Below are positions 18,254-56,560 of a stretch of DNA of 64,000 nt, one piece after another (the stretch's first letter is position 1; each line of letters starts with the position of its first letter). Under the pieces are notes generated by a model. That model ran no database searches. It was given only the letters and a program-made list of their open reading frames with translations, and was not told the DNA's origin. Where the stretch lies: contig CAUYUJ010000281.1 in NCBI GenBank assembly GCA_963575745.1, forward strand, positions 434,001 through 498,000. Direction: 5' to 3'. The stretch is from Prorocentrum cordatum (Eukaryota). A program made the translations under genes and the position numbers.

Positions 18254-18419
18254 TGAAGGGGCCCCAGGACACACAAATAAATACACACAAATGAAAAGAT
18301 ACCCCATATTTCCCATATTTTTGGGGTTTTCGTCTTCCCCCCCACACCCCATATTTTCCCATCATATTTTCTGGGGAATCGAGGATTAATTGTGTCTGTG
18401 TGTTTTTGTCCCCCCCTGA
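18254..18419 (+). mobile_element. Family A, copy 2
   Basis: Same sequence as 11808-11977. Confidence 0.85.
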
Positions 18420-18500
18420 ACCTTGGCTGCGCCATGGCCCTCGGGCGCACTGTGCCGTTCTCGGCCGCCGCCAGCCTCAGCCTCCATCCCATGTTCCTTA

Positions 18501-27276: not shown

Positions 27277-27451
27277 TCAAGGGGCCCCAGGACACAAACA
27301 TGAACACACACACACACAACAGTAACAGGATTCCCCATATGTTTCTAATATTTTCTGGGTTTTTACCTTCCCCCCCATTAACCATCTCTTCCCAGATGTT
27401 CGGGGGAATCGACGATTCATTGTGTCTGTGTGTGTTTTTTGTTCCTCCTGA
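27277..27451 (+). mobile_element. Family A, copy 3
   Basis: Same sequence as copies 1 and 2. Confidence 0.8.
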
Positions 27452-30115: not shown

Positions 30116-30688
30116 CGTTCCCACGGAAGACCTCGCAGGACGGGCGCGGGCCGAGGCTTCCTAGGCTCCCCCCATCCCATCCCTCCCTCTATCCCTCGCT
30201 CCCTCCCCCCATCCCTCGTTCCCTCCCTCCCCTCGCTCCCTCCCCACATCCCCTCGCTCCCTCCCCCCGTCCCCTCGTTCCGTCCCGAGGCTTCCGAGGG
30301 CTTCCAAGGCCCCCCCTCCTGTGCTGCAGGGGGGAAAGGAGAAGGAGAAGGAGGAGGAGGAGGAGGAGGAGGAGGAGGAGGAAGAGGAGGAGGAGGAGGA
30401 GGGAGGAGGGGAGGAGGAGGAGGAGGGAGAGGAGGAGGAGGAGGAGGAGGCGGAGGAGGAGGAGGAGGAGAAGGAGGAGGAGGAGGAGGACCGAGCAGGA
30501 AACACGAGGGCGGCGGCGCCAGCTCCCCGGCCAGGTAGTCCGGCGCGCCAGGCAGGGCGGCCCATAGCTCCGGGCACCTGGGAGCCCCCGGGGCCACCCG
30601 GGTGAGGCGGCGCCCGCGGACGTCGACGACGACGGCGGGGGGGGGGGCAGGGAAGTCCTGGTCGAGGGGGTCGAGGGGGGGTCGAGTG

Positions 30689-30719
<31 letters not shown>

Positions 30720-30781
30720 TGTGTGTGTGTGTGTTTTTGTCATCTGTCCCATGAGGGCATGGCCGTGGTGCACGCGTGCTA

Positions 30782-30865
30782 TCAGTCGGGGCCGTCCGAG
30801 CCATCAACGACCGCCGTGATCAGCGGCTCCTGGACCTCCACATGGGCGAGGGGGGCTCGGACACC
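30782..30865 (-). CDS. Duplicate copy of the candidate terminal exon at 31603-31686
   Basis: Appears identical by eye, offset 821 bp. Confidence 0.4.
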   Translation of the reverse strand, partial: GVRAPLAHVEVQEPLITAVVDGSDGPD

Positions 30866-31443
30866 CTGCAAAACAACGGCACCCCGGGGCACTGCGGAGG
30901 GCGCTGACGCCGCCGACGTGGCGGCAGCCGAGGGCGTGGAGAAGGGAAGCCTCGCAGCGCGACAGCTGCGACACCCGCTGACACCGCTGGCAGCCCGTCG
31001 CCCGCTCGGCGGCCGTGGGCGGGCCCCCTCTCATCCCCAGTCGGGGGGGGCCCCCCCTCGTGCCACAGTGGGGGGAGGAGGCGTCGGAGGAGGAGGAGGA
31101 GGAAGGTGGGAAGGGGGAGGAGGAGAGGCCGGGCGGGTTAGGCCGCGGCGTTCCCTCTCCCATGCTCGCCGGGCTCCGACCGTAGCACGGTTCGGCCCCC
31201 ACCAGCCGGAGGCGGGGGTCCGGGGCAAACCCGCAACCTGGGAGCCCCCGGGCCACCCGGGGAAGGCGGGCGGCCCCGCGGGGGGGACGTCGACGACGAC
31301 GGCGGGGGTCCGCGCCTGGGAAGTCCTGTCGAGGGCGAGGGGGTCGAGGGGTCGAGTGTGTGTGTGGGTGTGTGTGGGTGTGTGTGTGGGTGTGTGTTTG
31401 TGGGTGTGTGTGTGTGTGTGTGTCTGTGTGTGTGTCTGTGTGT

Positions 31444-31558
<115 letters not shown>

Positions 31559-31602
31559 TGTCATCTGTCCCATGAGGGCATGGCCGTGGTGCACGCGTGC
31601 TA

Positions 31603-32120
31603 TCAGTCGGGGCCGTCCGAGCCATCAACGACCGCCGTGATCAGCGGCTCCTGGACCTCCACATGGGCGAGGGGGGCTCGGACACCCTGCAAAACAACGG
31701 CACCCCGGGGCACTGCGGAGGGCGCTGACGCCGCCGACGTGGCGGCAGCCGAGGGCGTGGAGAAGGGAAGCCTCGCAGCGCGACAGCTGCGACACCCGCT
31801 GGCAGCCCGTCGGCCCGCTCGGCCGTGGCGGGCCCCGCACTCCCGTCGCGGGGGGGGCCCCCTCGTGCCACAGCGAGGGGGAGGAGGAGGCGGAGGAGGA
31901 GGAGGAGAAGGAGGAGGAGGAGGAGGAGGAGGAGGAGGAGGCCGCGGCGGGTTAGGCCGCGGCGTTCCCTCCCCATCGCCGGGCTCGACCGTAGCACGGG
32001 TCGCCCCCCCCGGGAGAGGTCGGCACCGCCCTTGGCCTCACGGGCCTGGACGCGTGCCAGAAGCGCCGGCAAACCTGGCGTGGGGATGCTGGAGCTTGCC
32101 ACGGCGGTGTCAGCGACCTC
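31603..32120 (-). CDS. Last two candidate exons of an unidentified gene: 32046-32120 (EVADTAVASSSIPTPGLPALLARVQ) and 31603-31686 (GVRAPLAHVEVQEPLITAVVDGSDGPD*)
   Basis: CAG|G acceptors (the second is gttgttttgcAG|G), a CAG|GC donor, an in-frame phase-0 junction and a TGA stop. Confidence 0.5.
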
Positions 32121-34590: not shown

Positions 34591-34927
34591 ACAAAGGGCT
34601 CGAGATACCTCAGCATCGTTCACGGGAGCCTCCAGCATGCCTCCGAGAAAGCCAGAAGGCAGCCCTAACACGGTTCCAAGTGCCCTTCGAGCCTCCCACG
34701 GCACTCCCGACAAGCCAACATCCGTCAACAACCGGTGGAAAATCAATGCTTTGGGGCGTTCCGGTTTTCGTTTCCAATGAGCCTCTGGGGCTTCAAGATA
34801 GCTCCCAAACGGCCCAAGAGAGCCCCACGAGGGGCCCAAGACGACCCCAACACGGCCCCAAGAGCGCCCAAGAAGTGTCCAAGAGCTGCCCCAGAGGCCC
34901 CCAAAAGGCCATCTTGGAGCTTCCGAC

Positions 34928-35125
34928 CCAGAGATCCGACGTCGCGATTTTTTCAATGCGGGGTCCCCAGAAGTCTCGACCCATTCACCGGGACCGGTTT
35001 TTCATCCTAAGTCGTTTTTTTGACGGTCCTGGGGCCCGGCGAGGGCCCCTAGGGGCCGAAATTTGCGAAATACCTCCGTCCAGATTTTATTCAGTACGTT
35101 GGGGGTCTGGGGAGGGCGGAGCCTA
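34928..35125 (+). mobile_element. Family D copy
   Basis: gagatccgacgtcgcgattttttcaatgcggggtccccagaagtctcgacccattc... shared with five other copies. Confidence 0.8.
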
Positions 35126-38012: not shown

Positions 38013-39420
38013 TAGCCTCCTCACCCTGACTCCCCCTCCGCTGTCGGCCGCACACCGCGCGCGAGGAGGCGCCTGCCGGAGGCCCGCAGGGCGGCGCCGA
38101 CGGCAGCCCTCTCGCCCCCCTCCTTCAGGGTCTCCGCGATGGCCGGGACCTTTCTCTCGTCGGCGGCGCCGGCGTCGTCAGCGCCGTCGTCGTCGCCGCC
38201 GCCGTCGTTGTCGTCGATGTCGCCGCCGCCGCGTCGCCCTCTTTGTCGTCTTGGCTGTCGTCGGCGTAACCGGCTCCATCAGCGTCGTCGCCATTGTCGT
38301 CGCCTGGCCCTCCCCGTAAGAGCAGGAGGAGGACTTGAGGGACAGAGGGAAAGTGGGTCGTGGAGGAGGAGGAGGAAAGATGAGGAAAATCATGGATCGA
38401 AGTTGCGGAGAGTGTCGTGGTTCCGAATGCTCCGAATATCTTCCGTTGCGTCTTACCAAGGTTTAAGATTTCACAGATGATGTTAGGACGCCGGGAAGAG
38501 GACGGACGGAGGAGGACGAGGAAGAGGAGGGAGATGGAAAAGTGGAGAATGGCGGCGCAGGTTCTAGGATCTGTGCAGTTGCATCGCGCTTGGACGATGG
38601 GGTTCTCGAGAGGCGCTGGATGCGCTGAGGATGTTAGAAGGCTCTGGGGGGCTCGGAGAGGGTCGAAGGAGAGGGAAGATACTGAAAAGGAGCAGCAACA
38701 CTATTAGCAGAAAAAATGACGAGAGAAGGGGGAGGATAAGCTGAACAAGCTGGAAAAGGGACGCTGCCCCGCTTCGCCCAGGAGCCGATGGACGGCCCGC
38801 GAACTCAGACGCCAAAGAATGCACTCGCCGCCCCGTCAGCTCGTCACCACCCCAGGGGGCCCTCGGCACTCGCACCCACTTCGGTACGAATTAACAGCAA
38901 CAACAAATCCTCTCCACTCCTCCTCCTCCTCCTCTTCCTTCACCTCCTCCTCCTCCTCCCTTTCCTCCTCCTCCTCCTCCCCTCCTCCTCCTCCTCCTCC
39001 CTCCTGCCTCCCCTCCTGCCCCTTTTCCGCCTCCTCCTCCCTTTCTCATCCACACCCCCCCCCCTCTTCTCTCTTCCTCCCTCCTCGTCCTCCTCCTCCG
39101 ACTTTCTCTCCTCCTCCCTCCCTAGTTCCCTCCCCCTCCTTCCTACTCCAAAGCCTCCTCCTCCCTCCTCCTACCCCTCCTCCCACCTCCTCCTCCTCCT
39201 CCTCCTCCTCCTCCTCCTCCTCCTCCTCCTCCTCCTCCCCTTGCTCCCCCTCCTCTTGCTCCTCCTCTGCACCCTCCTCATCCTGCTCCTCCCTCCACCT
39301 CGTTTTCATCTTCGTCGTCTTCAGTGTCGGCGGCACCGGCCGCAAGGCCTTCGCAATCAGCCCAGATCCTGGATCTCACAATGTCCCCAAGAATCATGGA
39401 CGCAGCAATGCTGCCTACTT

Positions 39421-39583
39421 TGAAAGGGCCCAGAGACACGCAAATAAATACACACAAATCCAATGGATCCCCCATATTTCAACATATTTTATGGGTTTGT
39501 GTCTTCCCCCCACTTCCCATATTTGCCCACATTTTCCTGGGAATCGACGATTAATTGGGTCTGTGTGCTTTCTTCCCTGCTGA
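39421..39583 (+). mobile_element. Family A, copy 4
   Basis: Same sequence as the other copies. Confidence 0.85.
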
Positions 39584-43967: not shown

Positions 43968-44334
43968 ACTCTCCCCCCCGTGCACCTCCCCCCCCCTCGT
44001 GGCTCGAGGATCCGGGAGGCTCCCCGCGGGCCCGTCCCGAGGGCAACGATCACGAGACAGCTCGCCGCTGGGGCCCCAGCGCCGGCCCAAAGGCCGAGCA
44101 GAACTCGGGCGCAGCCTCGCACGCGTTCGAATGCCGACACTTCGTCCTCGCAGTACTCGTATTCCTCACCGTCCTCCTCCCCATCATGATCGTCGTCGTC
44201 CTCCTGTTCGTCCTCCTCCTCATCCTCCTCTTCTTCCTCGTTTCCCTCCTGCTCCAGCTCCCCCTCGTCCTCGTCAAGGGTTTCGTCCTCGTTTCTCATC
44301 TTCCTCCTCCTGCTTATCCTCATTCTCCTGGCAC

Positions 44335-44520
44335 CTCGGCGGCCGAGAATAAAACCGTCTCCCATCGGTTGCGCCATAGGGTGCGCCCTCGGCGGCAGAT
44401 AATAAAACCGTCTTCTACCGGGTGCGCCATAGGTTGCGCCCTCGGCGGCCGAGGGTAAAACCGTCTCCTCTCGGTTGCGCCATTGGGTGCGCCCTCAGCG
44501 GTCGAGAATAAAACCGTCGC
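44335..44520. repeat. 53-bp tandem repeat, about 3.5 copies
   Basis: aaaaccgtc occurs at 44351, 44404, 44457 and 44510. Confidence 0.9.
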
Positions 44521-44777
44521 GTAACGGGCGCGACCAGTGTGTTCAGTTCAGTTCAGTGCAGAAGCTCACTTCAGTTCAGTTCAGTCAGTTTATCTCGCGT
44601 GAAACAAACTCGGGCTACGCCAGGAAGAACAAACAAAGACGTCCAAACAATGACGAGATCGGTGGTTCAAAGATGGGGTCCTGAGAGATGGGGTCCTGAG
44701 GACAGGAATGGGGCCCAAGGGTGCATCTACATTGCTTGAGGCACAACGTCCTTTGGACCCCATCCCTCGGGACCTCA

Positions 44778-44990
44778 AAGATCCGATGTCGTGATTCTTT
44801 CAAGTCGGGGTCACCAGAAGCCTCGACCCATTCCCCGGGACCGGCTTTGCAGCCTGAGTCGCTTTTGACGGTCCCGAGGCCCGGCGAGGGCCCCTGGGGG
44901 CCGAAACTTGCGAAAACCCCCGCCTTCATTTTTTCAATAATTTGGATCTCTGGGGTAGTCCAGGGCGGTCTCAACAACCCTCCGCCCTCC
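44778..44990 (+). mobile_element. Family D copy
   Basis: Close match to 56346-56560. Confidence 0.8.
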
Positions 44991-45502
44991 CCCTCCTACT
45001 CCTCCTTCTCCTCCTCCTCCTCCTCCTCCTCCTCCTCCTCCTCCTCCTCCCCCTCCTCCTCCTCCTCCTCCTCCTTCTCCTCCTCCTCCTCCTCCCTTAT
45101 CCTTCCTCTCATCCTCCTCCCCTCCTCCCTCCTCCGCCGTTCCTCCTCTCCTTCCTCCTCCGCTCCTTCCCTCCGCACACTGTTCCTCCTCCTCTCTCCG
45201 CCTCCGACCTCCCTCCGCCTCCGCCTCTCCTCATTCCTCTCTCCTCACCCTACCTCCCCCCTTTCCGCTCCTCCTCTTCTCTCCTCCTCCGACCTCCCTC
45301 CGGCCTCCTCACTCCTCCTCCTCCTCCTCCTCTCATTACTTTTCTCCTCATCCTCCTACTCCCTTCTCCTCCTCCGATCATCCCGTCCTCACCTCCGCAT
45401 CATCATCAACACACGCGCTCGACACACCATCCGCCCACACCCCCCCCCTCTCCCCCTCTCTACATCCACCTCCTCTATCACTATGGCGAGCCGAGCCCGA
45501 GC

Positions 45503-45665
45503 CTCTGGCGGTGCGGCACCGGCCCGGGCCGAGGCGCGCCCTCCGCGCGCCTCGAGCCGCCGGCGCACACTCGGGCGCGCGTGCGGGCGGCGGCCGGCGG
45601 CCAGGCAGGGCAGCGGCAGCCGCCGCCGGGGGCGCGCCAGCCGCCGCGCGGGCGGCCATGGCCAT
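45503..45665 (-). CDS. Probable exon 1 of the dehydrogenase gene (Ala/Arg-rich N-terminal presequence, MAMAARAAAG...)
   Basis: ATGGCC start preceded by a ctAG|G candidate trans-splice acceptor; the AG|GC donor in phase 1 matches the phase-1 acceptor at 43769. Confidence 0.6.
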
Positions 45666-45896
45666 GCTCGAGCCTAGCGGCTCCTCCTCCCCCTCCTCCC
45701 CCGCCCACCTCCCTCCTCCTCCTCCTCCTCCTCCCTCCTCCCTCCTCCTCCTCCTCCTCCTCCTCCTCGACGACGACTGGCGCGAAGAGTATCTCCGCGC
45801 CACATGCCGCTTACGCCGCCTCGGCCCCGCACTGAGCAGGGCACGAGGGCGGCGCCTCCGACCGCTCGATGACGAACGGTATCAAAGCCAGACGAG

Positions 45897-48800
45897 TTAG
45901 CCCACCGAGGCAATCGACGCGGAGGAGGCGCCACGCGCAGACGACGTCTCCCCCGCGCGGATCGTTTCAGCGGACAGCAGGCGCTGGCGCAGCAGGTGCC
46001 AGCGCTTGTTCAGGCTGAAGCGTGCAGGATCACGCGACAAATTCTGCAAAACACGAAAGCCATGCGATCCAGGGAGAGGATTCCCCAGACAGGCTTGCTG
46101 GAACTGCTGGGAGACCTTCCTGCCCCCCAGCCCACACACAAGACAGGCGACGCACCACGCCCCGCCTGTGAGCTGGAAAAGATGACAGACGTGCTGGCGA
46201 TCGCCAGCGGCGGCGATGCGCACGCATGCCGAGTCAGCCTGGGCGAGGGCTCGTGGCGTACGGGTGGGAGGAGGAGGGAGGACCTCAAGGGGAGGAGGAA
46301 CCTTCACTCTCTGAGCCCTCGCCTTGACCTGCACATGCAACGAGTCACAGTCACACAAACGTGGCCCAACGCGCGCGCACCATCTGGCATAATGTCGGAG
46401 CACGCGCGCTTTGGACTGCCTGGTAGTACGAAGCTCAGCTGGCACTCTGGCGCGCTCCGTGCTCCACTTGGCCCAATCATCGGCCTCCCCGTTGCCGTCG
46501 CGACAAAACTGAGACACTCTACCCGCTTGCACTGCAGCACGCGTGGTGTGAGCTGGGACCTTGATTAGAGCGAAGGATTGCACTCCACCCCAGTCGTCAA
46601 TCCTGGCCCACACGAGTCTCCAAATTTCAGCCCAGGCGCTGCTGCTGCTACAGCAGTGCCTGCGACCGCGAACAAGCACGCCCTCGAAAACGAAACTCGA
46701 ATCGGTGTAAAAAGTGGCCCCAGGGGTGGCATGCTGGAGACCCCTGAGGAAAGCAGTGAGCTCGGCCGCATCGATGTCTACGAGCGTGCCAGGCAGAACT
46801 CCGACGAGCACAGACCGCACCTTAGCCGAATCGGCCTCGACAGCGACGACAGCCCACCCCGCGGCCTGAGCGTGGGCGGGCAGATCCTGGTCGTGCCAGG
46901 AGCCGTCCAAGAAAATATGCCCATCCATCTCTGTGGGACCGCCGCCGAACCATCTCTCGGGAGGTTTGGTGGAAGCAGGCAGCACAGCAGCAGGCACGAG
47001 CAGCCTCTCAGCAAAGAGGTTGGTGAGAGGGGAGGCGGCGGCAGCGCGCGACAGAGGGCCGAGGTAGGACGGAATATCCTTAGCCTCCATCACCTCCTCC
47101 TGCATTCCGCAAGCCGTGTGCCTGTGCCTGAGCGTGCACGGGTTCTGGCGGCAAGCCAAGCACACAGGCGAATCGGTCATTCCGGTGCTCCACTGTCGAT
47201 GCTGTGGCCACTGGCCGCCTGATACAACACTCTTGAGGTAGCCTTTTTCCGTAGGCAAGAGCTCCTTACCTTGCATGAGCGACACCAAAGGCTGAAACAA
47301 GCATCCGTCTTGCAGCTCTGGCATCTTTTCTGTCTGCGCGACGCGGGACCAGAGCCAACAATCAATAACTCGCACCAGCCATAGCCCTACCGTGCGAGGC
47401 GAGACTTCTTGGACAGAGATGCGTCCAAGCACAGAGTGAGACCATTGGAACCCTTGGACCAGGATCTCAAGGCGGATCGCCGTGGCAGCACAGGCCGAGA
47501 ACGGGCCACGAACGCTGCCCCAGGCGTTGCCACTCTGCTGGATTCGCTCATAGGCTTCAGTGATGCCTTGCTCGAGCAGCTTGGCTGGGAGCCACAAATC
47601 CCAAACGGCGCTGGCGAAGGCAAGCAGCGGGTCCATGTTGAGACGATACACAGGATCACACCGCGGGACCTCCGCAAGCATTAAAAGTAGCGCGATAGAT
47701 CTACCAGCCAAACTGTTGACTTGCACATAAGCTTGCATCGCACGAGCGGTGCGTAGCTGAGTGTTGTTGCTGCCATACACGTTGCCCCCATACTTGAGGG
47801 AGGCCAAGCAAGCAGCCGACACCATATGATGCACACTGCGTTTTTTTAATCACTTTGGCGAAACTGTGCAGCTTCCGCGCCCGAGCAATAGCTGGACGCA
47901 TCCTAGCAGCACGAGTCTCTTTGGCCATAACTCTAGCAAAGGCAAAGTCGATCCCCAAGTTGCGCTCACTGGAGACCCCTTTCAACTTGACAGACTTCAC
48001 CCGCTGCACTATCCGATCTCTCAACCCTTTATCCGACGCGACGACGCGACCCTTCCGACTGTGCACGACGAGACCAATCTTCTTGAGCTCGGTGTGCAGC
48101 AGGGTGGTGGCATTAGAGAGCTCGTGTTCTACATCAGTAGCGCGCCCTAGCTTTTGCAAACCGAAATCATCTACTACTATGCCCAAGTCAACGCGAGGGA
48201 ACGTAGCGCACACTCGATCTACAGGCAGCAAGAGCACTAGCTGCAGCATGACCGTTGCGAAGTGGCATCCTGGCAGCACCGCTTGGTTCGCGGCCAAGGG
48301 CTGCGATACAGCATCGTTGAGGGAGAGAACACGTGGGGACCTGTAGAGCTCCACGAGGAGCTTCAGCTGGCGAGTCGGAAAATTCGTACGCAGCGCCGCA
48401 GAGAGGAGCTCTGCGTGGGAGACGTGCTCGAAAGCCTTCTGCAAATCGAGCAACACCAGGCCAGAGCTGAAGCCTTTGGTGGCGGCCCATTCAGCTCCAG
48501 CTACTTGAATCCAGACTAACTTGTCGCTGCTGCGACCGCTGGTGGACCACCAGTACGGCCGCGGGTTGGCCTCTTGCCAGTCCTTGATCAGGGGACGCCT
48601 GAGCCGTCCCTGAATTCTGGCTAACATGTGGATTAGCGCTATTGGCCTCAGGCCACCTTCCCGTTTGGCCAGGAAAACGACCTTGGTCCAGAACCTGGGC
48701 CAAGAGGCAGCTCGCTCGATCTCTTCGAGCAGGTCCAGCAGCAACTCTAGGCCGGCATCGGAGAGGGCCAGAAGTTGTCGCGGCGTGACCTGATCAAAGC

Positions 48801-50350
48801 CACAGCCTGAAGCACGTGGGAAGGTGCCCAGACATTCTTTCAACTCTTGGAGACTGGGGCGAGGAAACTCAGGCCCTAGATCGCTTGGCCAAGGGATGCT
48901 GGACTCCTCCGCCCCCACCCTCCACCAGTGCGACCACTCCTCCTCCAATAAATCAACTTCCTGCTGCATGGTTGCAGGCTGCGCAGGCACACCAGCTCCG
49001 CTGGCGAAGGTGAAAGAGCTGGCGTGCCACGGCACAGGCGGCCTGGAGGTGGCGAAGAGCGCCGCTCCTCCGTTGATGCTATGACGCTGGACCCAGGACC
49101 GCCAGCCGTCGCGCTTGCTTTTTTTCAGCTTGCCTGAACGCTTGTTCAGCTTTGGTAGTGGCCACCACAGAGAGCGCAGAGACTAAATCGTACGGCAACA
49201 CCTGAGCAAGCGAGAGCAACGCCTTCCAAGGCGCAGCAACATGCGCCTCTACCTTACTGTCTTGACGTTGAAGCAGAGACGCAAGACGTAGATCTGGCAC
49301 TCGACGACAAGGTGGTTGCCAGGAGCCCATGGAGTGGAAGCACTGCGCCACCAGCCTCCACCAGAGAGCCTCAGGACTCAGCCTCGGGTATGGCAGCTTG
49401 CCAGGGCTGGGCGCCTTGCGCGTGACGAAGGAAGGCCCCTCAGCGCGCCCAGCATACTCAGGGTGCTCGTCCAGGCTGACGTCGTAGATGTCGGCCCAGT
49501 CTTTCTCGGCTGCTCGAATCCACTCTTGCCACATGCCATCTACATTGCCAGCAGCCGTCATGGAGACCTGCGCGTCTGCCCAGTACTGATCGGGGTCGTG
49601 ACGGCGACATCCAATCGGCAACTCAACTGGGAACCGCTTTGGCACCCGAGCCACTCGGTAGCACAACTGCTGCGCCACCTCGGGCTGAAGAGTGAGGAGC
49701 ACAGGGCTGTGAGGCTTGGTGCCAACTCCATGCACAAGCTCTGCCGTGGCCCCGTACTGCAGGGTGGCAGAGACTATAAAGAAATCCAGCACGCGCCCTT
49801 TCGACTGAGCCGAATTGCTGCAGGTCGCCACTGACGGAGCAACGATGGCGCCATCGATGGCCTCAACCCACCCAGAGCCATTAAGCTGATCAGGAGTCAT
49901 CTGAAAGTCACCATTGATAATGTACGGCATGTTGGCGATCTTGATGGCCTCGCCAACTGCATTGAGGACGGCCCAGTTCCTCGGGCCCAACTGCTCACCG
50001 TCGTGCAGGTAGACGTTGACCCACAGGAACCCGCACGGCGTGAGACCTGAAGCGTGAAGCGCCGAAGCCCTCCCGTTCGCGATGGTGACGGGAAGATGCT
50101 CCACCTCCGCCAGCCCCTGGTGTCCAGGGACTGCTTGAAGAAGACCGCCACTGCTGCCTCCTCTCCCTGTGGCCAGAGCTGGCTCCATTCTGGCGCGCCA
50201 GCCCGTGCCCTTCAACTTGGCCTCCCAAGACGCACACTGCCATTGCTCGACGTGGTGTTCTTGAACGGCTAAAGCATCGCAACTTTGCGCAACGGAGTGC
50301 CCAAGAAGAGCCTCCAGGCCGAGAAGGCCCGTGACGATGCTGGTAATCAT
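45897..50350 (-). CDS. LINE ORF2 in three frame segments, with frameshifts near 49122 and 47844
   Basis: APE endonuclease: AVQEHH, VNVYL, INGDFQ, VLDFF, PHSPV. RT: GLRPIAL, LLDLQKAFEHV, VLPGC, IVVDDF, RNLGIDF. RNase H: IFLDGS, AELTA, YTDS, KVPAH, GNGEADDWAK. Cys/His clusters CLAC...HRHTAC and CVACLVC. Confidence 0.92.
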
Positions 50351-50366
50351 CCTCCACCTCTGTTTG

Positions 50367-51374
50367 TCAAACCTGCTGGGCACCGCCTGCTGCCGAGGCC
50401 GCGTCGTCAGCCCGCAGCTTCTTGGAGGCCTGCACACGCACCTGGCTGAAGATGTCGGCGACCAGGCTGTGCTTGACGCCGTGCTTCTCGCCAAGCTCGG
50501 CAACCATGGCACTGCCCTCGTCCTCGTTCTCGGCGAGGTACTGGAGCAGGTCCTGATGAGCAAGCCTGGCACGCTCCTGCGCTGCGAGGGCGTCGGCACT
50601 GGGAGGCTGTGGCCCAGCAGGCGGCATGTCAGCGTCAGCCCCGCCAGCAGGAGGAGCAGAACCAGCTGGAGGAGCAGCGGGAGCCGCGGGGGCTGGCAGC
50701 GCCTCTCGAAGCGCGGGGACGACACCGGCGAGCGTGGCCGCAACCTGCTTGAGCGGCTCGGACTGCTCGAGCGCCGCCACGAGCTTCTGGAGCTGGCCGA
50801 GCGGGTCGGCGGGCGCCATGGTGGCGTAGGCGGCGGCGGCACGCGCAGCTGCAACCTTCTCAGCCTGCACAGCTGCGGCCAACTCCGCCTTGAGCTTGAC
50901 CGCATTAGCCACTGCTCTCCCCACTGCCTCCTGCGCCCTGTCATAGGCGCGCTGGGCCTTGACCTTTTTGTCCGAGGCCGTGTCTTGCTCGAGCCTTGCA
51001 GCCTTGGCGCTGGCTTTGGGCTCGTCGCTCTGGAGAGCGCGCTGCACCTTGATCTTGGCAACGAGCTTCGCAGGCCAGCCCTCGGTGGCGACCTCGAAGT
51101 CCTCCTGGGACATGGACGCGTAGACTTTGATCTGCTCCGTCGAGAGTTGCAACATGCGAGGCTGCGCTGCAGCCTTGGGATTGGGAGGCCCTTGCATCCA
51201 GGCGCCGAGAAGACGCTCGCCTGGCGCTTGACCTTGCCCCGCTTGACCACGTGCTGCTTGCCCAGGGAGACGCCCAGGCTTCCAGCCGCACCTGTAGCAA
51301 CTCGTTCTTGAAGCATAGTTGCGTTGAAACCCACACCTCTTGTTACAGCACGCCCAGCGAGAGAAATCTCCCAT
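50367..51374 (-). CDS. LINE ORF1, 335 aa, with an N-terminal RanBP2-type zinc finger and Ala-rich coiled-coil-like region
   Basis: MGDFSRWACCNKRCGFQRNYASRTSCYRCG approximates W-x-C-x(2-4)-C-x(3-4)-N-x6-C-x2-C; first ATG after the spliced leader; stop lies 17 nt before the ORF2 ATG. Confidence 0.85.
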   Translation of the reverse strand: MGDFSRWACCNKRCGFQRNYASRTSCYRCGWKPGRLPGQAARGQAGQGQAPGERLLGAWMQGPPNPKAAAQPRMLQLSTEQIKVYASMSQEDFEVATEGWPAKLVAKIKVQRALQSDEPKASAKAARLEQDTASDKKVKAQRAYDRAQEAVGRAVANAVKLKAELAAAVQAEKVAAARAAAAYATMAPADPLGQLQKLVAALEQSEPLKQVAATLAGVVPALREALPAPAAPAAPPAGSAPPAGGADADMPPAGPQPPSADALAAQERARLAHQDLLQYLAENEDEGSAMVAELGEKHGVKHSLVADIFSQVRVQASKKLRADDAASAAGGAQQV

Positions 51375-51487
51375 GTGCTCAGCGTAGTTGGAAGGCAAGG
51401 GCGTGCGGGCTGAAACCGCAGTTCTGTACCGATGTAAGTGAGGAAACTGACGGGGTCGCGAACCCCAGGCCAAAGAAAACTCTTGTC

Positions 51488-51530
51488 CTTGAGCGAAACG
51501 CCTACGGACTTGAGCCAAAATGGCTACGGA
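51488..51530 (-). other. Genomic copy of the dinoflagellate spliced leader (51509-51530, perfect) plus an adjacent degenerate copy (51488-51508)
   Basis: Reverse complement reads TCCGTAGCCATTTTGGCTCAAG followed by TCCGTAGGCGTTTCGCTCAAG. Confidence 0.95.
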
Positions 51531-51671
51531 CCTCCTCACCTCCTCCTCCTCCTCCTCCTCCTCCTCCTCCTCCTCCTCCTCCTCCTCCTCCTCCTCCTCC
51601 CTCCTCCTCTCCTCCTCCTCCTCCTCCTCCTCCTCCTCCTCCTCCTCCTCCTCCTCCTCCTCCTCCTCCTC
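51531..51671. repeat. (CCT)n tract separating the two divergent spliced-leader-capped inserts
   Basis: Directly visible. Confidence 0.95.
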
Positions 51672-51738
51672 ACCATAGCCATTTTGGCTCAAGCCATGTT
51701 GGCTCAAGCCATTTTGGCTCAAGTTGCCACCGCTCAAG
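51672..51738 (+). other. Spliced leader plus three stacked 15-nt relics
   Basis: ACCATAGCCATTTTGGCTCAAG (51672-51693), CCATGTTGGCTCAAG, CCATTTTGGCTCAAG and degenerate TTGCCACCGCTCAAG. Confidence 0.93.
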
Positions 51739-51802
51739 CCAGCTGGGCAGGAGCAGCCTGCCCACAGTTTTCGCGCTACATCCACACGCCGCAGTTGCCG
51801 CC

Positions 51803-52735
51803 ATGTCTTCCAGGACGCCCTGGGTTCGTAAAGGAGGAGTAGGAGCTCCAGTTGTTTCGCATTCAAAGTTGCTTTGCCCGCGTGGCAGGCCAGACTGTTG
51901 GATCTGGCCAAATAGAATTGCTTCTCAGCCGTTATGTAAGTGCGGCCTTCCTTGGCATGGGAAGAGTTCCCAGCCACTTCCGCCACCTCCGCCACCACCG
52001 TCAGCAGCGAAGTCTGGTCGCACAGAAAAGATCAAGGCTGAGGTAGTAGTTGGCAGGGAGAAGTTTCAGTCCAATCACAAGCACACTGTTCAGGTAGAAG
52101 CCGACAGTGTGAAGGAGCAGCCACCATCGCCGCCTCTTGTGGCAGTGAAGCCCAATCCCAAAGATAAGGCCGCCAGTCAGGTAGAAGCCAACAGAGAACA
52201 GGGCCAGGATTTCAAAGTCAGGCATCAGTTCAAGCTTTTGATCTCGGATGTCTTCCAGCAGTACGAACCGCCGATGCTGGATCAGCTGGGCCATTTCTTG
52301 GACAAGTACAAAGGGCAAGAACAGCTTCTTTATTTGGCAGTATGCGAGAAATTCAATGCGGAGCCTAAGGTAAAGGTTCAGATCACCAAGAAGGAAGACA
52401 AGCTTCCAGTTTTGGACAGCGATAGCGTGTCCGACTCACCTTCTGCCAGTATAAAACATGTCGACAGTCCTCGTTCGACTTCTCCAGAGTACGCTAGTAA
52501 GCGTGCAAAGGTTGGGCACAGCGATGCCGCCCCTTCCAGTGGTTCTGCCCCGTCCAATTCAAGACTTCTGGAGCTAAAGTGTGGTCTCCAGGATATCAAG
52601 AGCAAGCACCTCCAGCAGAAGCTGGAGACACTTCAGGAAGAGCTCAAACGTGCTAAGAATCAAACCGCAGCTTCATGCAGTGCGCCTGTTCCAAGGAGGA
52701 GCAGATCCAGCTCAGACTCCACTTCTTCAAAGTAA
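51803..52735 (+). CDS. Intronless 310-aa hypothetical protein in a retroposed unit (N-terminal Cys4 cluster, central helical motif, C-terminal coiled-coil-like segment)
   Basis: GCCGCCATG start 65 nt after the relics; non-repetitive open frame; CPRGRPDCWIWPNR...CKCGLPW, FQQYEPPMLDQLGHFLDKYKGQEQLLYLAVCEKF and LQQKLETLQEELKRAK. Confidence 0.8.
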   Translation: MSSRTPWVRKGGVGAPVVSHSKLLCPRGRPDCWIWPNRIASQPLCKCGLPWHGKSSQPLPPPPPPPSAAKSGRTEKIKAEVVVGREKFQSNHKHTVQVEADSVKEQPPSPPLVAVKPNPKDKAASQVEANREQGQDFKVRHQFKLLISDVFQQYEPPMLDQLGHFLDKYKGQEQLLYLAVCEKFNAEPKVKVQITKKEDKLPVLDSDSVSDSPSASIKHVDSPRSTSPEYASKRAKVGHSDAAPSSGSAPSNSRLLELKCGLQDIKSKHLQQKLETLQEELKRAKNQTAASCSAPVPRRSRSSSDSTSSK

Positions 52736-53904
52736 TTGGAGCAATTATGTTGGTAGTATCCAACTTTCTTTTCAGCGGCAGAATTTGTATTGCATCTTGG
52801 GCAAAATGGCAACTTGAGTATTGGCTTAGTGTGCAACATTCTCGGCTACAGGTTTTGGTAGAATCCTTTGTGTTGGTCATTTGCGTTTGGGTAGGACAGT
52901 TGTCAGCTACCCAGGGTTCTTTAATGTTCACGTCTTGTTTCCTTGGCCAGATTGGCAGTACTGTGAAGCAGGTAGCTTACTTGCAGTTTCTTCTTCATGC
53001 GCTAGTTGGGCAGTTGTATCCAGCCCAGTTTATTTTTACTCTTCAGGGGTCCAGGAAAGTCTGGCGAAGTAATCCCCTAGTAATCTCTCTACCCTTTGGG
53101 GGATGGTAGGTCTCGCTCTGCTAGGGGACTCCCATTAGTATGTGGGAAGAAAGTTTACCCCAGTGCATTGCAGTCTTGATCTCCTTCCCCTTCTTTGGTC
53201 CTTCTTTCTTCCCCCCTCCCTCCTTCCTCCCTCCAGACAGGTCAAGGAATTGGCAGCCAGGTCACAGGCGAAAGCAAGTGGCCTTCCCTGGCGGGTCTTG
53301 CCATGGTCTCACCATGCCCGAAAGTCCGAACCTGCAAGTTGGCGTTCAGGGATTGCTCTTGTCTGGTGTGGGGGATATTTGGTGGGTGGTATAGGATTAT
53401 CCGCCCCGTTCTGGGGAAGTTCTGCATTGATTCCGTTCTGGCCTGGGAACGGCCCATTAGAAGGTGGGCAGCGTTTAACCCGGACGAGTTTTGTTTCATG
53501 CTGTCCTGCTCCTCCTCTCCTCCTCCTGGGGTAAGGTTCTTGGCGCCGACTCGGAACTGGCAACGCCCCAGGCTTGGACTGGGGGTCAGTTGCTGTCCGC
53601 GGAACGCGCATGAGCTTTAGTTCAGCCCCGAAGCGAATGTCAATGTCCTCCTCCTCCTCCTCCTCCTCCCCCTCCTCCTCCTCCTCCTCCTCCTCCTCCT
53701 CCTCCTCCTCCTCCTCCTCCACTGCCGGGGCTCCGGGAGGGCGGTGATCTCGAGCCTAGCGGCTGCCCAGACCTTCCTCGAGGGCTACAAAAGAGCGCCA
53801 GGACTTCGACGGCTGAAATCCAATCGAGGCCTGAAGCAGCCCAGATAGGTCTAGAGGTCTGGAGGGCGTTTTTGTCAGCACTCTGGAAGGTCAAAGAAAT
53901 GACG

Positions 53905-54075
53905 GACCCAGAGATCGGATGCTCCAAAAAGATGGGAACGGGCGGTGTTTTTGAATGATTTGTCGGTCTCCCGGGGCCCTCGCCGGGCCTCGGGGCCGTC
54001 AAGAAGCAGCTCAGGGCGAAAAGCTGGCCCCAAGGAAGTGGTCCGAACCTCTGGGGCCCACGCCTCGAAAAAAGC
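53905..54075 (-). mobile_element. Family D, inverted degenerate copy
   Basis: ggggccctcgccgggcctcggggccgtcaagaagc.gctcagg is the reverse complement of the family D core. Confidence 0.65.
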
Positions 54076-54949
54076 GGAGCAGCTGGATGTTCAGGGGCCA
54101 GGACGAGGGAGGAGCAGGACGAGGAGAGGGCAGAGGAGAGATGGGGGCAGTCCCCCCTTGCACACCTGCCCCTCCTCCCCTTCCTTCTGCCCCTGCACCC
54201 CTACCTTTCCCCCCCTCCTCTCCGATCTTCTGCGTCGTCCTCCCTGCCCCCCGCCTCGCCGTTCCCTCTTCCACAACCTCCTCCTCCTCCTCCTCCTCCT
54301 CCTCCTCCTCCTCCTCCTCCTCCTCCTCCTCCTCCCCCAAACCGCCTGATACCTCCTAGGATCCCAACAGATTCTCGCACAACCTCCTGGATTGTCCGAC
54401 CACCTCCTCCCCTCTTCCTGGCGCAGCGAAGCAAGCCTGTCGCGCCGCACCATGTAGAAGCCCCCAGATCTGATGAAATTCACGCCCAACCTTTTTTTCC
54501 AGCACGGGTTTCTACACCTCTATGTCTATGAATATACGTAAGCATGGGTCCGCTACGGACAAGCTGATTCGGGACTATTCGGGATCATCAAGAAGGCGGG
54601 GCTGATTGAGAACGTGCACTGAACCACCGACCCAATGAGACACATCAAAATAATCGATATGTAACCTTGTGTGAAGTGGCCAGTCGTGCTCACACGTCCA
54701 CACATCCTCCACATCCATCATCCTCCCTACCTGCCTTCCTGGTTGTTCTCCTCCACCTGTCTTTCCCTGCCTCCTCCTTTATCGGTCCTTCCTCCCAACA
54801 TGGGGGGCTCTTACGACATTCGAGCGTTTCGAAAGACATGCGAACACAATAGACATCAACGATGGAAACATACAAGCACCTCACACGATAAGCAATCCCA
54901 TGCAGCAACACATGTGCAAACAAATGCTTGCCAGCGTGAACCCAACCAG

Positions 54950-55340
54950 TGGAGTGTGGCACTGTGGCTGTGTAGGCTATGTAGTGTGATCTGCGAAGCG
55001 ACGTCTAAGTGGGATAAGTATATGGCGCACTATACGTGGTGCCTCTCTACATGTGGTGTGAGCTGTACATGGCCGATACGTTACGTGGTGCCTCCAATGT
55101 GGTACGACTAGGGGTCTGAGCTATTCAGTGCGGTGTAGGTGGTGCAATACATGTGGTGCGATGTGTGCGGCGCACGCTGTGCAGAGCAATCCCAATTCCG
55201 CAATACATAGTGTGCAATGTTAGTGCTGTGAGCTATAGGGTGTAATACATTGTGGCCTAAGCTATGTGGAGTTTATGTGGCATGGGTTATGTGCTGTTCA
55301 CTTCGTGCTGGGTATCGATGTCATTTGAGCTATGCAGCGC
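54950..55340. repeat. Degenerate TG-rich short-period repeat (tgtggtgtgagcta-like)
   Basis: Recurrent gtggtg / gagcta / aatacat motifs. Confidence 0.5.
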
Positions 55341-56109
55341 TGTAGATCACGCGCGGGGCCACCACGAAGAGCCCGCGGGCGGCAACGTGGCGAAAACTTG
55401 GCGGACCCACCCAGCGGCAGCGGACGGGGCGCCCACGAGGCGCCCGCGGGCGGCAACGTGGCGAAACCTCGGCGGACCAATCCAAAGTCTTGGGAAGGAC
55501 ACATAACAACTCTTCGTGCAAGCTCTGCTTGGGGAATCGAAGAGCCACTGGAGGCCGCAGAACACCTTCGACATCCTGTGCAAGCTGCCGAAGCATCCTC
55601 CCCCCCATCCAAGAGAGGAGGATAAGGTAGCAGGAGGAGGGAGGAGGATAATGAGGAGGAGGGGGAGGAGGACGACCAGATACCGCCAAGAGGGGTCACC
55701 ACTCCAGTACCACCGCTGAGGGGTTGCTATGCTAAGGGGGTCTCCTGAGTGTGCAGGCTTGCGGGGCATCGCGGGCACGACAGGATCATGCGCACACGTT
55801 GCTCAAGCGGCCTCAGGAGGCTCCTGGCCACAGGCCCTCCAGGAGATCCCCGCGGACGCCTCCGGAGGTCTCTGTAAGGAGGCGCCTGATATAGGGCCAG
55901 AAGGAAGGCAAAGGAGCTAGACAGGCAAAGAACAGCCTGGATCCCCGCACGTCAACTCTCGATCGGAGTCTCGACCACCCCTTCCTTCGGTGCTTCCGAG
56001 AGGGGGCCCAGAGGGATGGGGCCCCATTGACGAGAACCTCAAAGAGTGCAGTCTCAACTCGCGATCCACTTCCTGTCTCCAGGGCCCCATCCCTCAGGGC
56101 CGCATCCTT

Positions 56110-56263
56110 TGAAGGGGCCCCAGGACACACAAATAAATACACACCAAGATTCCCCATTTTTCAATATTTTTGGGGTTTTTGTCTTCCCCCCCCACTTCCC
56201 ATATTTTCCTATATTTTCGGGGGAATCGACGATTAATTGTCTGTGTGTTTCTTTCCCTCCTGA
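56110..56263 (+). mobile_element. Family A, copy 5
   Basis: Same sequence as the other copies. Confidence 0.85.
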
Positions 56264-56345
56264 TCCTTGAACCGCCGAACTGATAAGGCTTCCGGCTGAG
56301 CACAGGCAGCCGTAGTCCTGGCTGGCCCCATAAAACGACCCGAGT

Positions 56346-56560
56346 CCCAGAGATCCGACGTCGTGCTCTTTTCAATACGGGGTCCCCGGAAATCTCGACC
56401 CATTCCCCAGGACCGGTTTTTCATCCTGAGTCGTTTTTGGACGGTCCCGAGGCCCGGCGAGGGCCCCTGGTGACCAAAATTTGCAAAAACCTCATTTATT
56501 TTTCAATACTTTGGATCTCTGGGGTATTCCAGGGCGGTCTCAACACCCCTCCGCCCTCCC
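56346..56560 (+). mobile_element. Family D copy
   Basis: Close match to the copies at 34928 and 44778. Confidence 0.8.

What the first reader, a model, noticed from the sequence alone, without database searches (positions are those of the whole stretch)
51672..53645. Retroposed 2-kb unit with four stacked spliced-leader layers and an unknown zinc-finger/coiled-coil ORF: possible non-autonomous partner element
Seen: one full leader (1 mismatch), two 15-nt CCAT(T/G)TTGGCTCAAG relics and one eroded relic precede an intronless 310-aa ORF. About 900 nt of unique 3' sequence follow, ending abruptly in (CCT)n. Known: each round of trans-splicing at the leader's internal AG plus retroposition leaves one 15-nt relic. 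Inference: this unit went through up to four rounds, so it behaves like a serial mobile element rather than a one-off retrogene. Its Cys4 N-terminus plus coiled coil resembles an ORF1-like layout, and it has no RT of its own.
Basis: partly seen in the sequence, partly recalled or inferred. Interest (0 to 1): 0.82.

Follow-up and report, generated by a model that had tools for sequence, protein, structure and literature searches.

The report
Recycled dinoflagellate retrocopy beside a LINE
This 2-kb unit is a reverse-transcribed copy of an ordinary dinoflagellate messenger RNA that kept several layers of its spliced-leader tag, a known process, but here it sits head to head with a retrotransposon that may have inserted it.

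Summary
A 22-nt dinoflagellate spliced leader (SL) with one mismatch sits at 51672-51693. Two clean 15-nt relics follow, then one or two eroded in-phase relics. After them come an intronless 310-aa ORF (51803-52735) and 910 nt that end at (TCC)25.

Stacked relics are the known "mRNA recycling" signature. Song et al. 2017 tabulate genes with up to 8 layers.

The protein is not ORF1-like. It is mostly disordered, with one three-helix domain that is widespread and often repeated in other proteins in the search library, and one C-terminal helix. A full-length relative at 37% identity keeps the same layout. It shows no similarity to the neighbouring LINE's ORF1. The unit's 3' end does not resemble the LINE's 3' end.

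The family is small: about 10 protein fragments, and at most 11 contig variants at one place in one sequencing run. Fourteen listed substitutions against the laid contigs split 3 synonymous to 11 non-synonymous, which looks unconstrained.

Three further things stood out.
- The unit lies head to head with a full-length, SL-capped, frameshifted LINE across (CCT)47.
- An exact 16-nt direct repeat brackets the pair.
- Ten metagenome loci repeat the (TCC)n-SL junction, and the two whose 3' ends are visible lack poly(A).

Verdict: a known kind of element in an informative context.

The parts
45667..45682 (+). Copy 1 of the exact 16-nt direct repeat CTCGAGCCTAGCGGCT. It directly abuts the left array and is a candidate target-site duplication.
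   Evidence: the 16-mer has exactly two perfect matches in the window, both on the + strand; this pair is one of very few exact 16-mer pairs that lie outside the window's repeat families.
45683..45768 (.). (CTC/CCT)n array abutting the 3' end of the LINE. It reads (GAG/AGG)n on the LINE's sense strand.
45769..51530 (-). Full-length SL-capped LINE. It has ORF1 at 51374..50367. ORF2 is read in three frames (50365..49121, 49122..47860, 47855..46038) and is therefore broken by two frameshifts.
   Evidence: RVT_1 at E 1.3e-6 and RNase_H at E 9.5e-6. P0135, a 1545-aa ORF2 homologue, aligns over its residues 47-1523 across three frames; the endonuclease region is 27% identical to L010, which hits Exo_endo_phos.
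51487..51530 (-). 5' end of the LINE: a perfect 22-nt SL (51530..51509) followed by a second, full-length but degenerate SL (51508..51487).
   Evidence: Metagenome locus L006 shares the same double-SL 5' end.
51531..51671 (.). (CCT)47 array. It is the only sequence between the two head-to-head spliced leaders.
   Evidence: Inverted repeat I13 shows the two SLs as 21-nt arms 143 nt apart.
51672..51693 (+). Full 22-nt DinoSL with one mismatch, the newest layer.
51694..51723 (+). Two 15-nt SL relics, matching 14 of 15 and 15 of 15.
51724..51753 (+). Two in-phase eroded 15-mers, matching 7 of 15 and 9 of 15. They are possible older layers.
   Evidence: background P(>=7) is 0.046 and P(>=9) is 0.0033.
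51803..52735 (+). Intronless ORF of 310 aa. It has a CWxW..CKCGLPW motif, a poly-Pro stretch, a three-helix domain (residues 133-183), a Ser-rich linker and a long helix (residues 252-290).
52736..53645 (+). 3' untranslated part with no poly(A). Related copies in other runs share it at about 95% identity, up to 53643.
   Evidence: table 8: X2 record 16 covers 53099-53643 and X1 record 8 covers 52770-53193.
53646..53720 (.). (TCC)25 array at the 3' end of the unit.
53721..53748 (+). 28-nt spacer between the array and copy 2 of the direct repeat. It may be the true 3' end of the inserted material.
   Evidence: That it is the true end is inference.
53749..53764 (+). Copy 2 of the exact 16-nt direct repeat.

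Best explanation
The unit is a processed, SL-tagged retrocopy of a member of a small gene family that I found only in dinoflagellate-type data. The family encodes a mostly disordered protein with one three-helix domain and one C-terminal helix.

Its ancestors went through at least three, and perhaps up to five, cycles of the same sequence of events. First came transcription from upstream of the genomic leader. Then came trans-splicing of a new leader onto the AG inside the old one, which leaves a 15-nt relic. Then came reverse transcription and integration. This is the known dinoflagellate 'mRNA recycling', not a dedicated non-autonomous element.

The copy in this window is most likely evolving without constraint, as a retro-pseudogene whose reading frame is still open.

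Integration was most likely carried out by LINE machinery without using a poly(A) tail. That step is inferred. The unit lies head to head with a full-length SL-capped EN-RT-RNaseH LINE. Every junction is a (CCT)n array. The LINE-plus-unit segment (45683-53748) is bracketed by an exact 16-nt direct repeat that looks like a target-site duplication.

Shown: the anatomy, the family, the protein features and the repeat. Inferred: the number of rounds beyond three, neutrality of this copy, LINE mediation and the target-site-duplication reading.
For: Anatomy and significance:
- The SL and relic stack stand far above chance.
- Published counts of 1-8 relicts per gene come from Song 2017, PMC5585692, Table 1, passages seen.
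- The definition of the 15-nt relic comes from PMC12014239, passages seen.

The stack is inherited, not private to this copy:
- Run X3 has a 445-nt contig covering 51699-52146. That span holds the end of relic 1, relic 2, the eroded relic, the 5' UTR and the start of the ORF, with 23 differences and 4 gaps (table 8).

Family size:
- 2 hits among 1788 near-length candidates.
- 8 hits among 116 shorter candidates.
- All 4 laid runs hold contigs 80-99% like the unit, across the ORF and the 3' part.
- At most 11 contigs cover one place in X1, and one per place in X3.
- Some fragments are decayed. P0002 and P0032 run into unrelated sequence, and P0017 and P0003 look frame-shifted against the window (the frame reading is my own).

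Host-gene nature of the protein:
- The P0024 group (4 members, 258 aa, 37% identity) is collinear end to end.
- Residues about 140-200 match a domain present 1 to 17 times in 127 library representatives.

Structure:
- Only residues 133-183 (three helices, pLDDT 95-97) and 252-290 (one helix) are confident.

Neutrality of this copy:
- Of the 40 differences listed, 14 fall in the ORF.
- Of those 14, 3 are synonymous and 11 non-synonymous, against a random expectation of 22.6% synonymous.

LINE context.

16-nt repeat.

Recurrence of the same layout elsewhere:
- 10 metagenome loci have (TCC)n fused to a full SL.
- They include a ribosomal protein L28e retrocopy, L007 (Pfam E 2e-21).
- L007 and L005 both end in (TCC)n with no A-run.
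Against: - No genome was available, so the copy number, the number of relics per copy and the presence of an intron-bearing parent are not established.
- The neutrality test rests on only 14 differences chosen by the tool as 'best supported'; 178 more were not shown.
- The ORF is still intact over 310 codons, which could mean it is functional.
- There is no poly(A) remnant, which differs from classical LINE-made processed pseudogenes.
- The LINE's sense strand is flanked by (AGG)n while the unit's sense strand is flanked by (CCT)n. A single strand-specific targeting rule does not fit both.
- The neighbouring LINE copy is itself broken by two frameshifts.
- L007, the one metagenome locus with unique sequence visible beyond both arrays, shows no flanking direct repeat of 8 nt or more.
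Confidence: 0.75

Rival explanations
1. The unit is a dedicated non-autonomous retroelement. Its zinc-finger and coiled-coil protein acts like a LINE ORF1, and the neighbouring LINE family mobilises it as a partner.
For: - The family is multi-copy.
- Several SL layers are stacked.
- The unit is directly adjacent to a LINE, inside one 16-nt direct repeat.
- The LINE's own ORF1 also begins with a Cys-rich motif followed by an Ala/Glu-rich region (read by eye).
Against: - BLASTP against the LINE's ORF1 gives a best E-value of only 0.17.
- Pfam finds no domain in the protein.
- The model has no beta structure or RRM-like part, and the N-terminal Cys region has pLDDT 41-54.
- C25 is absent from the P0024 group.
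- A collinear relative at 37% identity, and a core domain shared with KH-domain, nucleoporin-FG and PH-domain proteins, point to a cellular gene.
- The unit's 3' part is not similar to the LINE's 3' end, and its fold z-score is +0.54.
- Ordinary genes such as ribosomal protein L28e show the same flanks.
- Only about 10 protein fragments, and at most 11 contig variants, were seen.
Confidence: 0.07
2. The window copy is a working retrogene. It is transcribed, possibly from within or beyond the LINE's 5' end through the (CCT)47 tract. It is trans-spliced at the leader's internal AG and translated into a functional family member.
For: - The 310-codon frame is intact.
- It is the most complete member of the family seen.
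- A pyrimidine tract directly upstream of GTAG|CC resembles a strong 3' splice site. This is read from the sequence and is inference.
- Reviews argue that relict leaders help retrogenes to be expressed (PMC6050394 passages; PMC12014239 passages).
Against: - Of the 14 listed ORF differences from the laid contigs, 11 are non-synonymous and 3 synonymous, as expected with no constraint.
- The listed differences are at least as frequent in the 3' part (24 in 910 nt) as in the ORF (14 in 933 nt).
- GC3 is 0.537 in a window with 0.62 GC.
Confidence: 0.2
3. The relic array arose by local replication slippage of a 15-nt unit after a single retroposition. In that case the number of layers overstates the number of rounds.
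For: - TRF reports a 15-nt period with 3.1 copies and 93% matches.
- The leader's own last 15 nt and relic 2 are identical, while the relic between them carries the only mismatch, so erosion does not increase steadily from 5' to 3'.
Against: - The period of 15 nt and the CAAG|CCAT junctions are exactly what splicing at the AG in leader positions 6-7 predicts.
- Slippage needs two relics to begin with.
- The two further in-phase 15-mers are progressively eroded, which fits age layering.
- The copy in run X3 shares the stack from 51699 onward, so the stack is older than this copy.
- Stacks of 2 to 8 relics are documented genome-wide.
Confidence: 0.05

Closest known systems
DinoSL-relict retrogenes ('recycled' processed cDNAs: Slamovits and Keeling 2008, as cited in PMC6050394; Song et al. 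2017, PMC5585692)
   Same: - A genomic full leader is followed by 15-nt relicts that start after the leader's internal AG.
- The coding region is intronless.
- Several layers record several rounds.
- The family is multi-copy.
   Different: - Four or more layers is rare. In Song's Table 1, 7 of 8,564 and 6 of 9,339 retrogenes have four.
- Here both ends abut (CCT)n arrays and no poly(A) is left.
- A full-length LINE lies head to head within the same 16-nt direct repeat.
- I found none of these three features described, either in the listings of searches or in the passages read.
LINE-1-made processed pseudogenes and twin-priming inversions in mammals (recalled; L1-mediated retrocopies are mentioned in PMC12014239)
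   Same: - An intronless copy of an mRNA is inserted by a LINE's endonuclease and reverse transcriptase.
- A target-site duplication of 7-20 bp is typical.
- Twin priming places two cDNA 5' ends head to head, with both 3' ends next to the duplicated target.
   Different: - There is no poly(A) tail here.
- The two halves are two different RNAs, a LINE and an mRNA, rather than one.
- A 141-nt microsatellite sits at the central junction.
- The single-event reading is inference only.
APE-type LINEs that insert into microsatellites: Waldo (ACAY), Mino (AC), Kibi (TC), Koshi (TTC), Dong (TAA) (PMC3812793, passage seen)
   Same: - The neighbouring LINE carries the same trinucleotide array at both ends.
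- Its 3' end runs straight into the array with no poly(A).
- Related LINE 5' ends in metagenomes (L001, L010) also abut (TCC)n.
   Different: - The LINE clade was not determined.
- Only one complete copy was seen.
- The metagenome loci were selected by the (TCC)n pattern itself.
- The LINE and the unit have opposite polarity relative to the array.
- The 16-nt repeat lies outside the arrays, which argues that the arrays came in with the insert and were not the target.
Spliced-leader-associated LINEs (SLACS and CZAR of trypanosomatids, NeSL-1 of nematodes; recalled, not checked here)
   Same: A non-LTR element is physically associated with spliced-leader sequence.
   Different: Those elements insert into SL RNA genes. 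Here the leader sits at the LINE's own 5' end, as expected if the LINE transcript is itself trans-spliced, and no SL RNA gene is nearby. No SL in the window is followed by a GT intron.

Membership tests
DinoSL-relict (recycled) retrocopy | A DinoSL encoded in the genome directly upstream of the coding region. | tested here: met
   The SL at 51672-51693 matches 21 of 22 positions and lies 110 nt before the ATG.
DinoSL-relict (recycled) retrocopy | One or more 15-nt relicts (the leader minus its first 7 nt) in tandem behind the leader. | tested here: met
   In-phase 15-mers match at 15, 14 and 15 of 15, then weakly at 7 and 9 of 15. The observed count is 4 against 0.12 expected.
DinoSL-relict (recycled) retrocopy | Intronless and collinear with the mature mRNA or protein of relatives. 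| tested here: met
   The single ORF is collinear with the full-length P0024 group and with P0001, P0003 and P0134. Read laying listed no ordinary skip joint; the only joints shown (table 5c) are X3's (TCC)n-to-SL junctions.
DinoSL-relict (recycled) retrocopy | An identifiable parent gene, possibly with introns. | not testable with these tools
   No genome is held. The metagenome and genome-contig scans with the protein found nothing.
Non-autonomous partner of a LINE (SINE-like or tail-sharing element) | A 3' end shared with the partner LINE. | tested here: not met
   The repeat search and the window self-BLAST found no similarity between 52736-53645 and the LINE's 3' region. The arrays at the two 3' ends are complementary on the elements' sense strands, not identical.
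Non-autonomous partner of a LINE (SINE-like or tail-sharing element) | High copy number with conserved termini. | tested here: inconclusive
   About 10 distinct protein fragments were found. At most 11 contigs cover one place in run X1, and one per place in X3. No genome was available for a census.
LINE ORF1p-like protein | An RNA-binding module (RRM plus CTD, or CCHC knuckles), or similarity to a LINE ORF1. | tested here: not met
   Pfam finds no domain. The model has helices only. BLASTP against the adjacent ORF1 gives E 0.17. I saw no C-x2-C-x4-H-x4-C motif in the sequence (read by eye).
Cys4 zinc finger | Four conserved metal ligands and a folded knuckle. | tested here: inconclusive
   C32, C45 and C47 are conserved in the P0024 group, but C25 lies in an N-terminal extension that group lacks. 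pLDDT is 41-54 with no secondary structure, although the alignment is shallow over this region.
Microsatellite-targeting APE-type LINE (applies to the neighbouring element) | The same microsatellite at both ends of independent copies, in a fixed orientation. | tested here: inconclusive
   The window copy has (AGG)n at both ends on its sense strand. The LINE 5' ends L001 and L010 have (TCC)n on their sense strand, but the search pattern selected them for that.

The most novel reading that the evidence does not exclude
The LINE and the leader-stacked retrocopy entered this site together or in nested steps through target-primed reverse transcription, leaving one 16-nt target-site duplication.

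If so, this would be direct physical evidence that SL-capped LINEs drive dinoflagellate mRNA recycling. Reviews call that an open point.

The integration would be independent of poly(A) and tied to microsatellites. A (TCC)n tract ends up immediately 5' of the genomic leader. There it forms a pyrimidine tract plus GTAG|, a ready trans-splice acceptor. Each new copy would then be primed to be trans-spliced at the internal AG and copied again. That would explain why layers stack.
Probability: 0.3. Interest if true: 0.7.

Novelty: new member of a known kind. Interest (0 to 1): 0.38.

Why it matters
The stacked-leader retrocopy itself is ordinary for a dinoflagellate. It adds one uncharacterised gene family to a known process.

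The value lies in the context. A 2018 review says it is unknown which type of retroelement performs retroposition in dinoflagellates, and it leans towards LTR elements (PMC6050394, passage seen). A 2023 paper argues for LINEs only from proximity of 95 bp to 17 kb (PMC10235124, passage seen).

Here a full-length SL-capped LINE and a multi-layer retrocopy are separated only by a microsatellite and share one 16-nt flanking repeat. The same (TCC)n-leader junction recurs in ten environmental contigs, and in the two whose 3' ends are visible (one a ribosomal-protein copy) no poly(A) is left.

A census of a Prorocentrum-type assembly could therefore settle the mechanism and the target preference.

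Tried and rejected
- **Whole-genome copy count.** No genome is held for this window.
- **Earlier scan notes.** Four look-ups gave nothing for this genome, nothing for the sequence and nothing relevant by words.
- **Protein-guided DNA scans.** The scans of metagenome contigs and genome contigs confirmed no relative.
- **Sequencing runs.** No run holds more than 17% of the sampled words, and no RNA holder is listed. Expression could therefore not be examined.
- **Cover in run X3.** The unit's stretch from about 52730 to 53040 and its last 60 nt had no cover. I draw nothing from that.
- **ESM Atlas.** No usable hit.
- **PDB sequence search.** I searched with P0016, a repeat-domain relative of the ORF, not the ORF itself. 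The only hit was at E 0.91.
- **Fold search of the model.** Only generic three-helix bundles came up, with best Z 5.4, which is below the level the tool calls meaningful for helical domains.
- **Rfam on 44000-56000.** Nothing reached a gathering score. One mir-483 match at E 0.015 I take as chance.
- **RNA fold of the last 406 nt.** The z-score is +0.54.
- **Pfam on 31 other long ORFs of the window.** Only low-complexity hits, so I could not test gene orientation against array polarity.
- **Target-site duplication around L007.** No direct repeat of 8 nt or more.
- **Idea that (TCC)n arises from RT stuttering on the leader's own 5' UCC.** This is weakened by an unselected set. Of 12 non-SL-gene leader loci in MAG contigs with 30 nt or more of 5' flank, 4 abut other microsatellites (a GT-rich array, (TCA)n, (AG)n and (GACA)n) and none abuts (TCC)n.
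- **Idea of a structured or LINE-like 3' tail.** Rejected.
Full report
**What is there**

The window is GC-rich DNA (0.62 GC), full of (CCT)n/(AGG)n arrays. By my sum of the TRF table, there are 33 such arrays covering 5,966 nt, or 9.3% of the window.

The named close protein relatives are gene models of Prorocentrum cordatum. I therefore treat the source as a Prorocentrum-like dinoflagellate.

At the coordinates given, the + strand reads in this order:
- (CCT)47;
- a 22-nt spliced leader with one mismatch (51672-51693);
- two 15-nt relics (51694-51723);
- an eroded in-phase 15-mer;
- 64 nt of 5' UTR;
- a 310-aa ORF (51803-52735);
- 910 nt of unique sequence;
- (TCC)25 from 53646.

The relic motif occurs 4 times in the window against 0.12 expected, and 0 of 100 shuffles reach that count. 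All four occurrences lie at this junction. The fourth belongs to a leader on the opposite strand.

In-phase 15-mers match the relic at 15, 14, 15, 7 and 9 of 15 positions before falling to background. Three layers are therefore secure and two more are plausible.

**Is the stack special?**

No. The 15-nt relic is the published signature of a retrocopy whose transcript received a new leader at the AG inside the old one (PMC12014239, passages; PMC6050394, passages).

Song et al. 2017 (PMC5585692, Table 1, seen) list genes by number of relicts in two Symbiodiniaceae genomes:

| Relicts per gene | Genome 1 | Genome 2 |
|---|---|---|
| 1 | 7,452 | 8,327 |
| 2 | 1,009 | 921 |
| 3 | 91 | 82 |
| 4 | 7 | 6 |
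| 5 | 1 | 2 |
| 6 | 3 | 0 |
| 7 | 1 | 0 |
| 8 | 0 | 1 |

Four layers are uncommon but known.

A 445-nt contig in run X3 covers 51699-52146 with 23 differences and 4 gaps. So a roughly 5% diverged sister copy carries the same relics, 5' UTR and ORF start. The stack is inherited and was not made by private slippage in this copy.

**The family**

No genome was available, so copy number had to be approached indirectly.
- The 5.8-billion-protein search gave 2 near-length hits among 1,788 candidates and 8 shorter hits among 116 candidates.
- Together with one member found in a cluster look-up, that makes about 10 distinct fragments at 58-91% identity (alignment A1).
- All four laid runs hold contigs 80-99% like the unit over the ORF and the 3' part up to 53643.
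- Run X1 has up to 11 contigs over one place, and X3 has one per place.
- Table 5 listed no ordinary skip joint. Table 5c shows only X3 contigs in which a TCC-type stretch runs through TCCG into the leader, the (TCC)n-to-SL junction.
- Several fragments look decayed. P0002 and P0032 run off into unrelated sequence. By my reading of the window's frames, P0017 and P0003 are frame-shifted.
- Of the 40 differences that one search lists between the window and the laid contigs, 14 lie in the ORF. Of these, 3 are synonymous and 11 are not, against 22.6% synonymous expected at random. A further 178 differences were not shown.

This points to a small family of retrocopies, and the window copy looks unconstrained.

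**The protein**

- Pfam finds nothing significant.
- The exhaustive HMMER search gave 127 representatives at E<=1e-3.
- The close ones are the fragments above. One group (P0024 and three near-identical members, 258 aa, 37% identity) is collinear from the N-terminal CWxW..CKCGLPW motif through poly-Pro, the core domain, a Ser-rich linker and a helix to the C-terminal SD(S)TSSK.
- All the other hits share only residues about 140-200. This roughly 50-aa module is present 1-17 times in proteins of up to 3,000 aa. Among the twelve hits scanned, five also carry KH (two), nucleoporin-FG (two) or PH (one) domains above Pfam's threshold.
- AlphaFold (32-row alignment, mean pLDDT 63.5) is confident only for three helices at 133-183 and one long helix at 252-290. 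The Cys region has pLDDT 41-54.
- Fold search returns only generic three-helix bundles, with Z of 5.4 or less.
- C25 of the proposed Cys4 lies in an extension that the P0024 group lacks.
- There is no similarity to the LINE's ORF1.

I conclude that this is a cellular gene of unknown function, not an ORF1 analogue.

**The neighbour**

On the minus strand a perfect leader (51530..51509) faces the unit's leader across the 141-nt array. It heads a full-length LINE, made up as follows:
- a second, degenerate but full-length leader copy;
- a 335-aa ORF1;
- an ORF2 that aligns to residues 47-1523 of P0135, a 1,545-aa homologue, in three frames, which means two frameshifts.

Its 3' UTR runs straight into (GAG/AGG)n on its own strand. 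The unit's 3' part shares nothing with the LINE's 3' end and is not unusually structured. So the tail-sharing test for a partner element fails.

**A 16-nt direct repeat**

CTCGAGCCTAGCGGCT occurs exactly twice in the window, both times on the + strand.
- The first copy (45667-45682) touches the array at the LINE's 3' end.
- The second copy (53749-53764) lies 28 nt beyond the unit's (TCC)25.

Of the 113 exact pairs of 16 nt or more in the window, nearly all belong to repeat families with extended similarity. This pair is isolated.

By my estimate, the chance that such a pair falls within about 30 nt of both outer array borders is of the order of 1e-6. I read the repeat as a target-site duplication around the 8,066-nt segment 45683-53748. 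That reading is inference.

Four routes fit:
- the unit inserted first, and the LINE later entered its 5' array;
- the reverse order;
- one event priming two RNAs from the two nicked strands;
- a read-through transcript or a template jump that carried both.

I cannot choose between them. All four imply LINE-type integration.

**Recurrence elsewhere**

A metagenome scan for (TCC)n, 0-4 nt, then the leader returned 10 loci.
- In 6 of the 10 the array runs in phase into the leader's own TCC.
- L010 is a LINE, by an Exo_endo_phos hit and 27% identity to the window LINE's endonuclease region. L001 shares its 5' end. L002 and L006 have Cys-rich ORF1-like starts but no Pfam hit.
- L006 shares the window LINE's double leader, although their ORF1s are unrelated.
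- L007 is a ribosomal protein L28e retrocopy (E 2e-21).
- A 3' end can be seen in only 2 of the 10 loci (L005 and L007). In both, the 3' UTR ends in (TCC)n with no A-run.

These loci were selected by the pattern, so they show recurrence, not frequency.

An unselected set came from scanning the prokaryote-genome collection for the bare leader. That gave 20 loci with 19 distinct contexts.
- 5 look like SL RNA genes.
- 2 have too little flank.
- Of the remaining 12, 4 abut a microsatellite: a GT-rich array, (TCA)n, (AG)n and (GACA)n.
- None abuts (TCC)n.
- None of the 10 examined shows an A-run of 12 nt or more.

So leader-capped retrocopies often abut whichever microsatellite a genome is rich in. 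This argues against the array being made from the leader's own UCC.

**How it most likely works**

Shown: a leader-tagged, intronless copy of a family member lies between two like-oriented pyrimidine arrays, beside a LINE.

Inferred:
- LINE endonuclease and reverse transcriptase integrated it without a poly(A) tail.
- Transcription entering from upstream would meet (CCT)47 followed by CCATAG|CC. That is a pyrimidine tract plus AG, and it would favour trans-splicing at the internal AG.
- That in turn yields exactly the 15-nt relic seen in each layer.

I found no paper describing microsatellite flanks, absence of poly(A), or LINE-retrocopy composites in dinoflagellates. This rests on the listings and on the passages read. 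I did not look at supplements, so supplementary tables of those papers could hold relevant data.

**Verdict**

- The 'partner element / ORF1-like' reading is not supported.
- The element is a new member of a known kind.
- The flanking repeat, the arrays and the LINE make the locus a useful test case for how dinoflagellate retroposition works.

Noticed in passing
window 45769-51530 (- strand): This is a full-length LINE whose 5' end is a perfect DinoSL followed by a second, complete but degenerate leader copy. LINE transcripts therefore appear to be trans-spliced like host mRNAs. ORF2 has two frameshifts relative to the 1545-aa homologue P0135.
   Followed up: partly
window 45667-45682 and 53749-53764: An exact 16-nt direct repeat brackets the LINE-plus-array-plus-unit segment (8,066 nt). 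It is a candidate target-site duplication. The arrays lie inside it.
   Followed up: partly
L001-L010 (metagenome contigs): (TCC)n is fused directly to a full DinoSL in ten contigs, and in phase in 6 of the 10. The ten include LINE 5' ends and a ribosomal protein L28e retrocopy (L007). L005 and L007 also end in (TCC)n without poly(A).
   Followed up: partly
L006:1325-1573 (- strand) and window 51487-51530 (- strand): The same 'leader plus TCCGTAGGCGTTTCG...AGGAC' double-leader 5' end heads two elements whose ORF1 proteins are not detectably similar. It could be a shared 5' module or a variant leader.
   Followed up: partly
L011, L014, L024, L026 (contigs in MAG records): Perfect DinoSL copies in bins labelled as bacteria, presumably dinoflagellate contigs binned by mistake. 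These four abut a GT-rich array, (TCA)n, (AG)n and (GACA)n. L016, L017, L023 and L029 look like SL RNA genes, with the leader followed by GTAC.
   Followed up: partly
P0003, P0006, P0007, P0017, P0023, P0028, P0134: These close relatives of the ORF come from a EukProt set labelled Pyramimonas sp. CCMP1952, with protein numbers above 430,000. The other close relatives whose source names an organism are P. cordatum gene models, so that data set may hold dinoflagellate sequence.
   Followed up: no
window 7652-7838, 34925-35112, 44771-44955, 53947-54076, 56346-56524: An interspersed repeat family of about 150-190 nt at 72-84% identity, in both orientations and often beside (CCT)n arrays. A second family lies at 11832-11979, 18242-18425, 27279-27451, 39410-39583 and 56097-56269.
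   Followed up: no
window 30686-31200 and 31506-32009: A direct duplication of about 520 nt at 91% identity, 820 nt apart, flanked by (GT)n arrays.
   Followed up: no
window 15991-16768 and 11183-11427: An 88-nt tandem repeat array of about 8.7 copies, with a second shorter array of the same unit 4.6 kb away.
   Followed up: no
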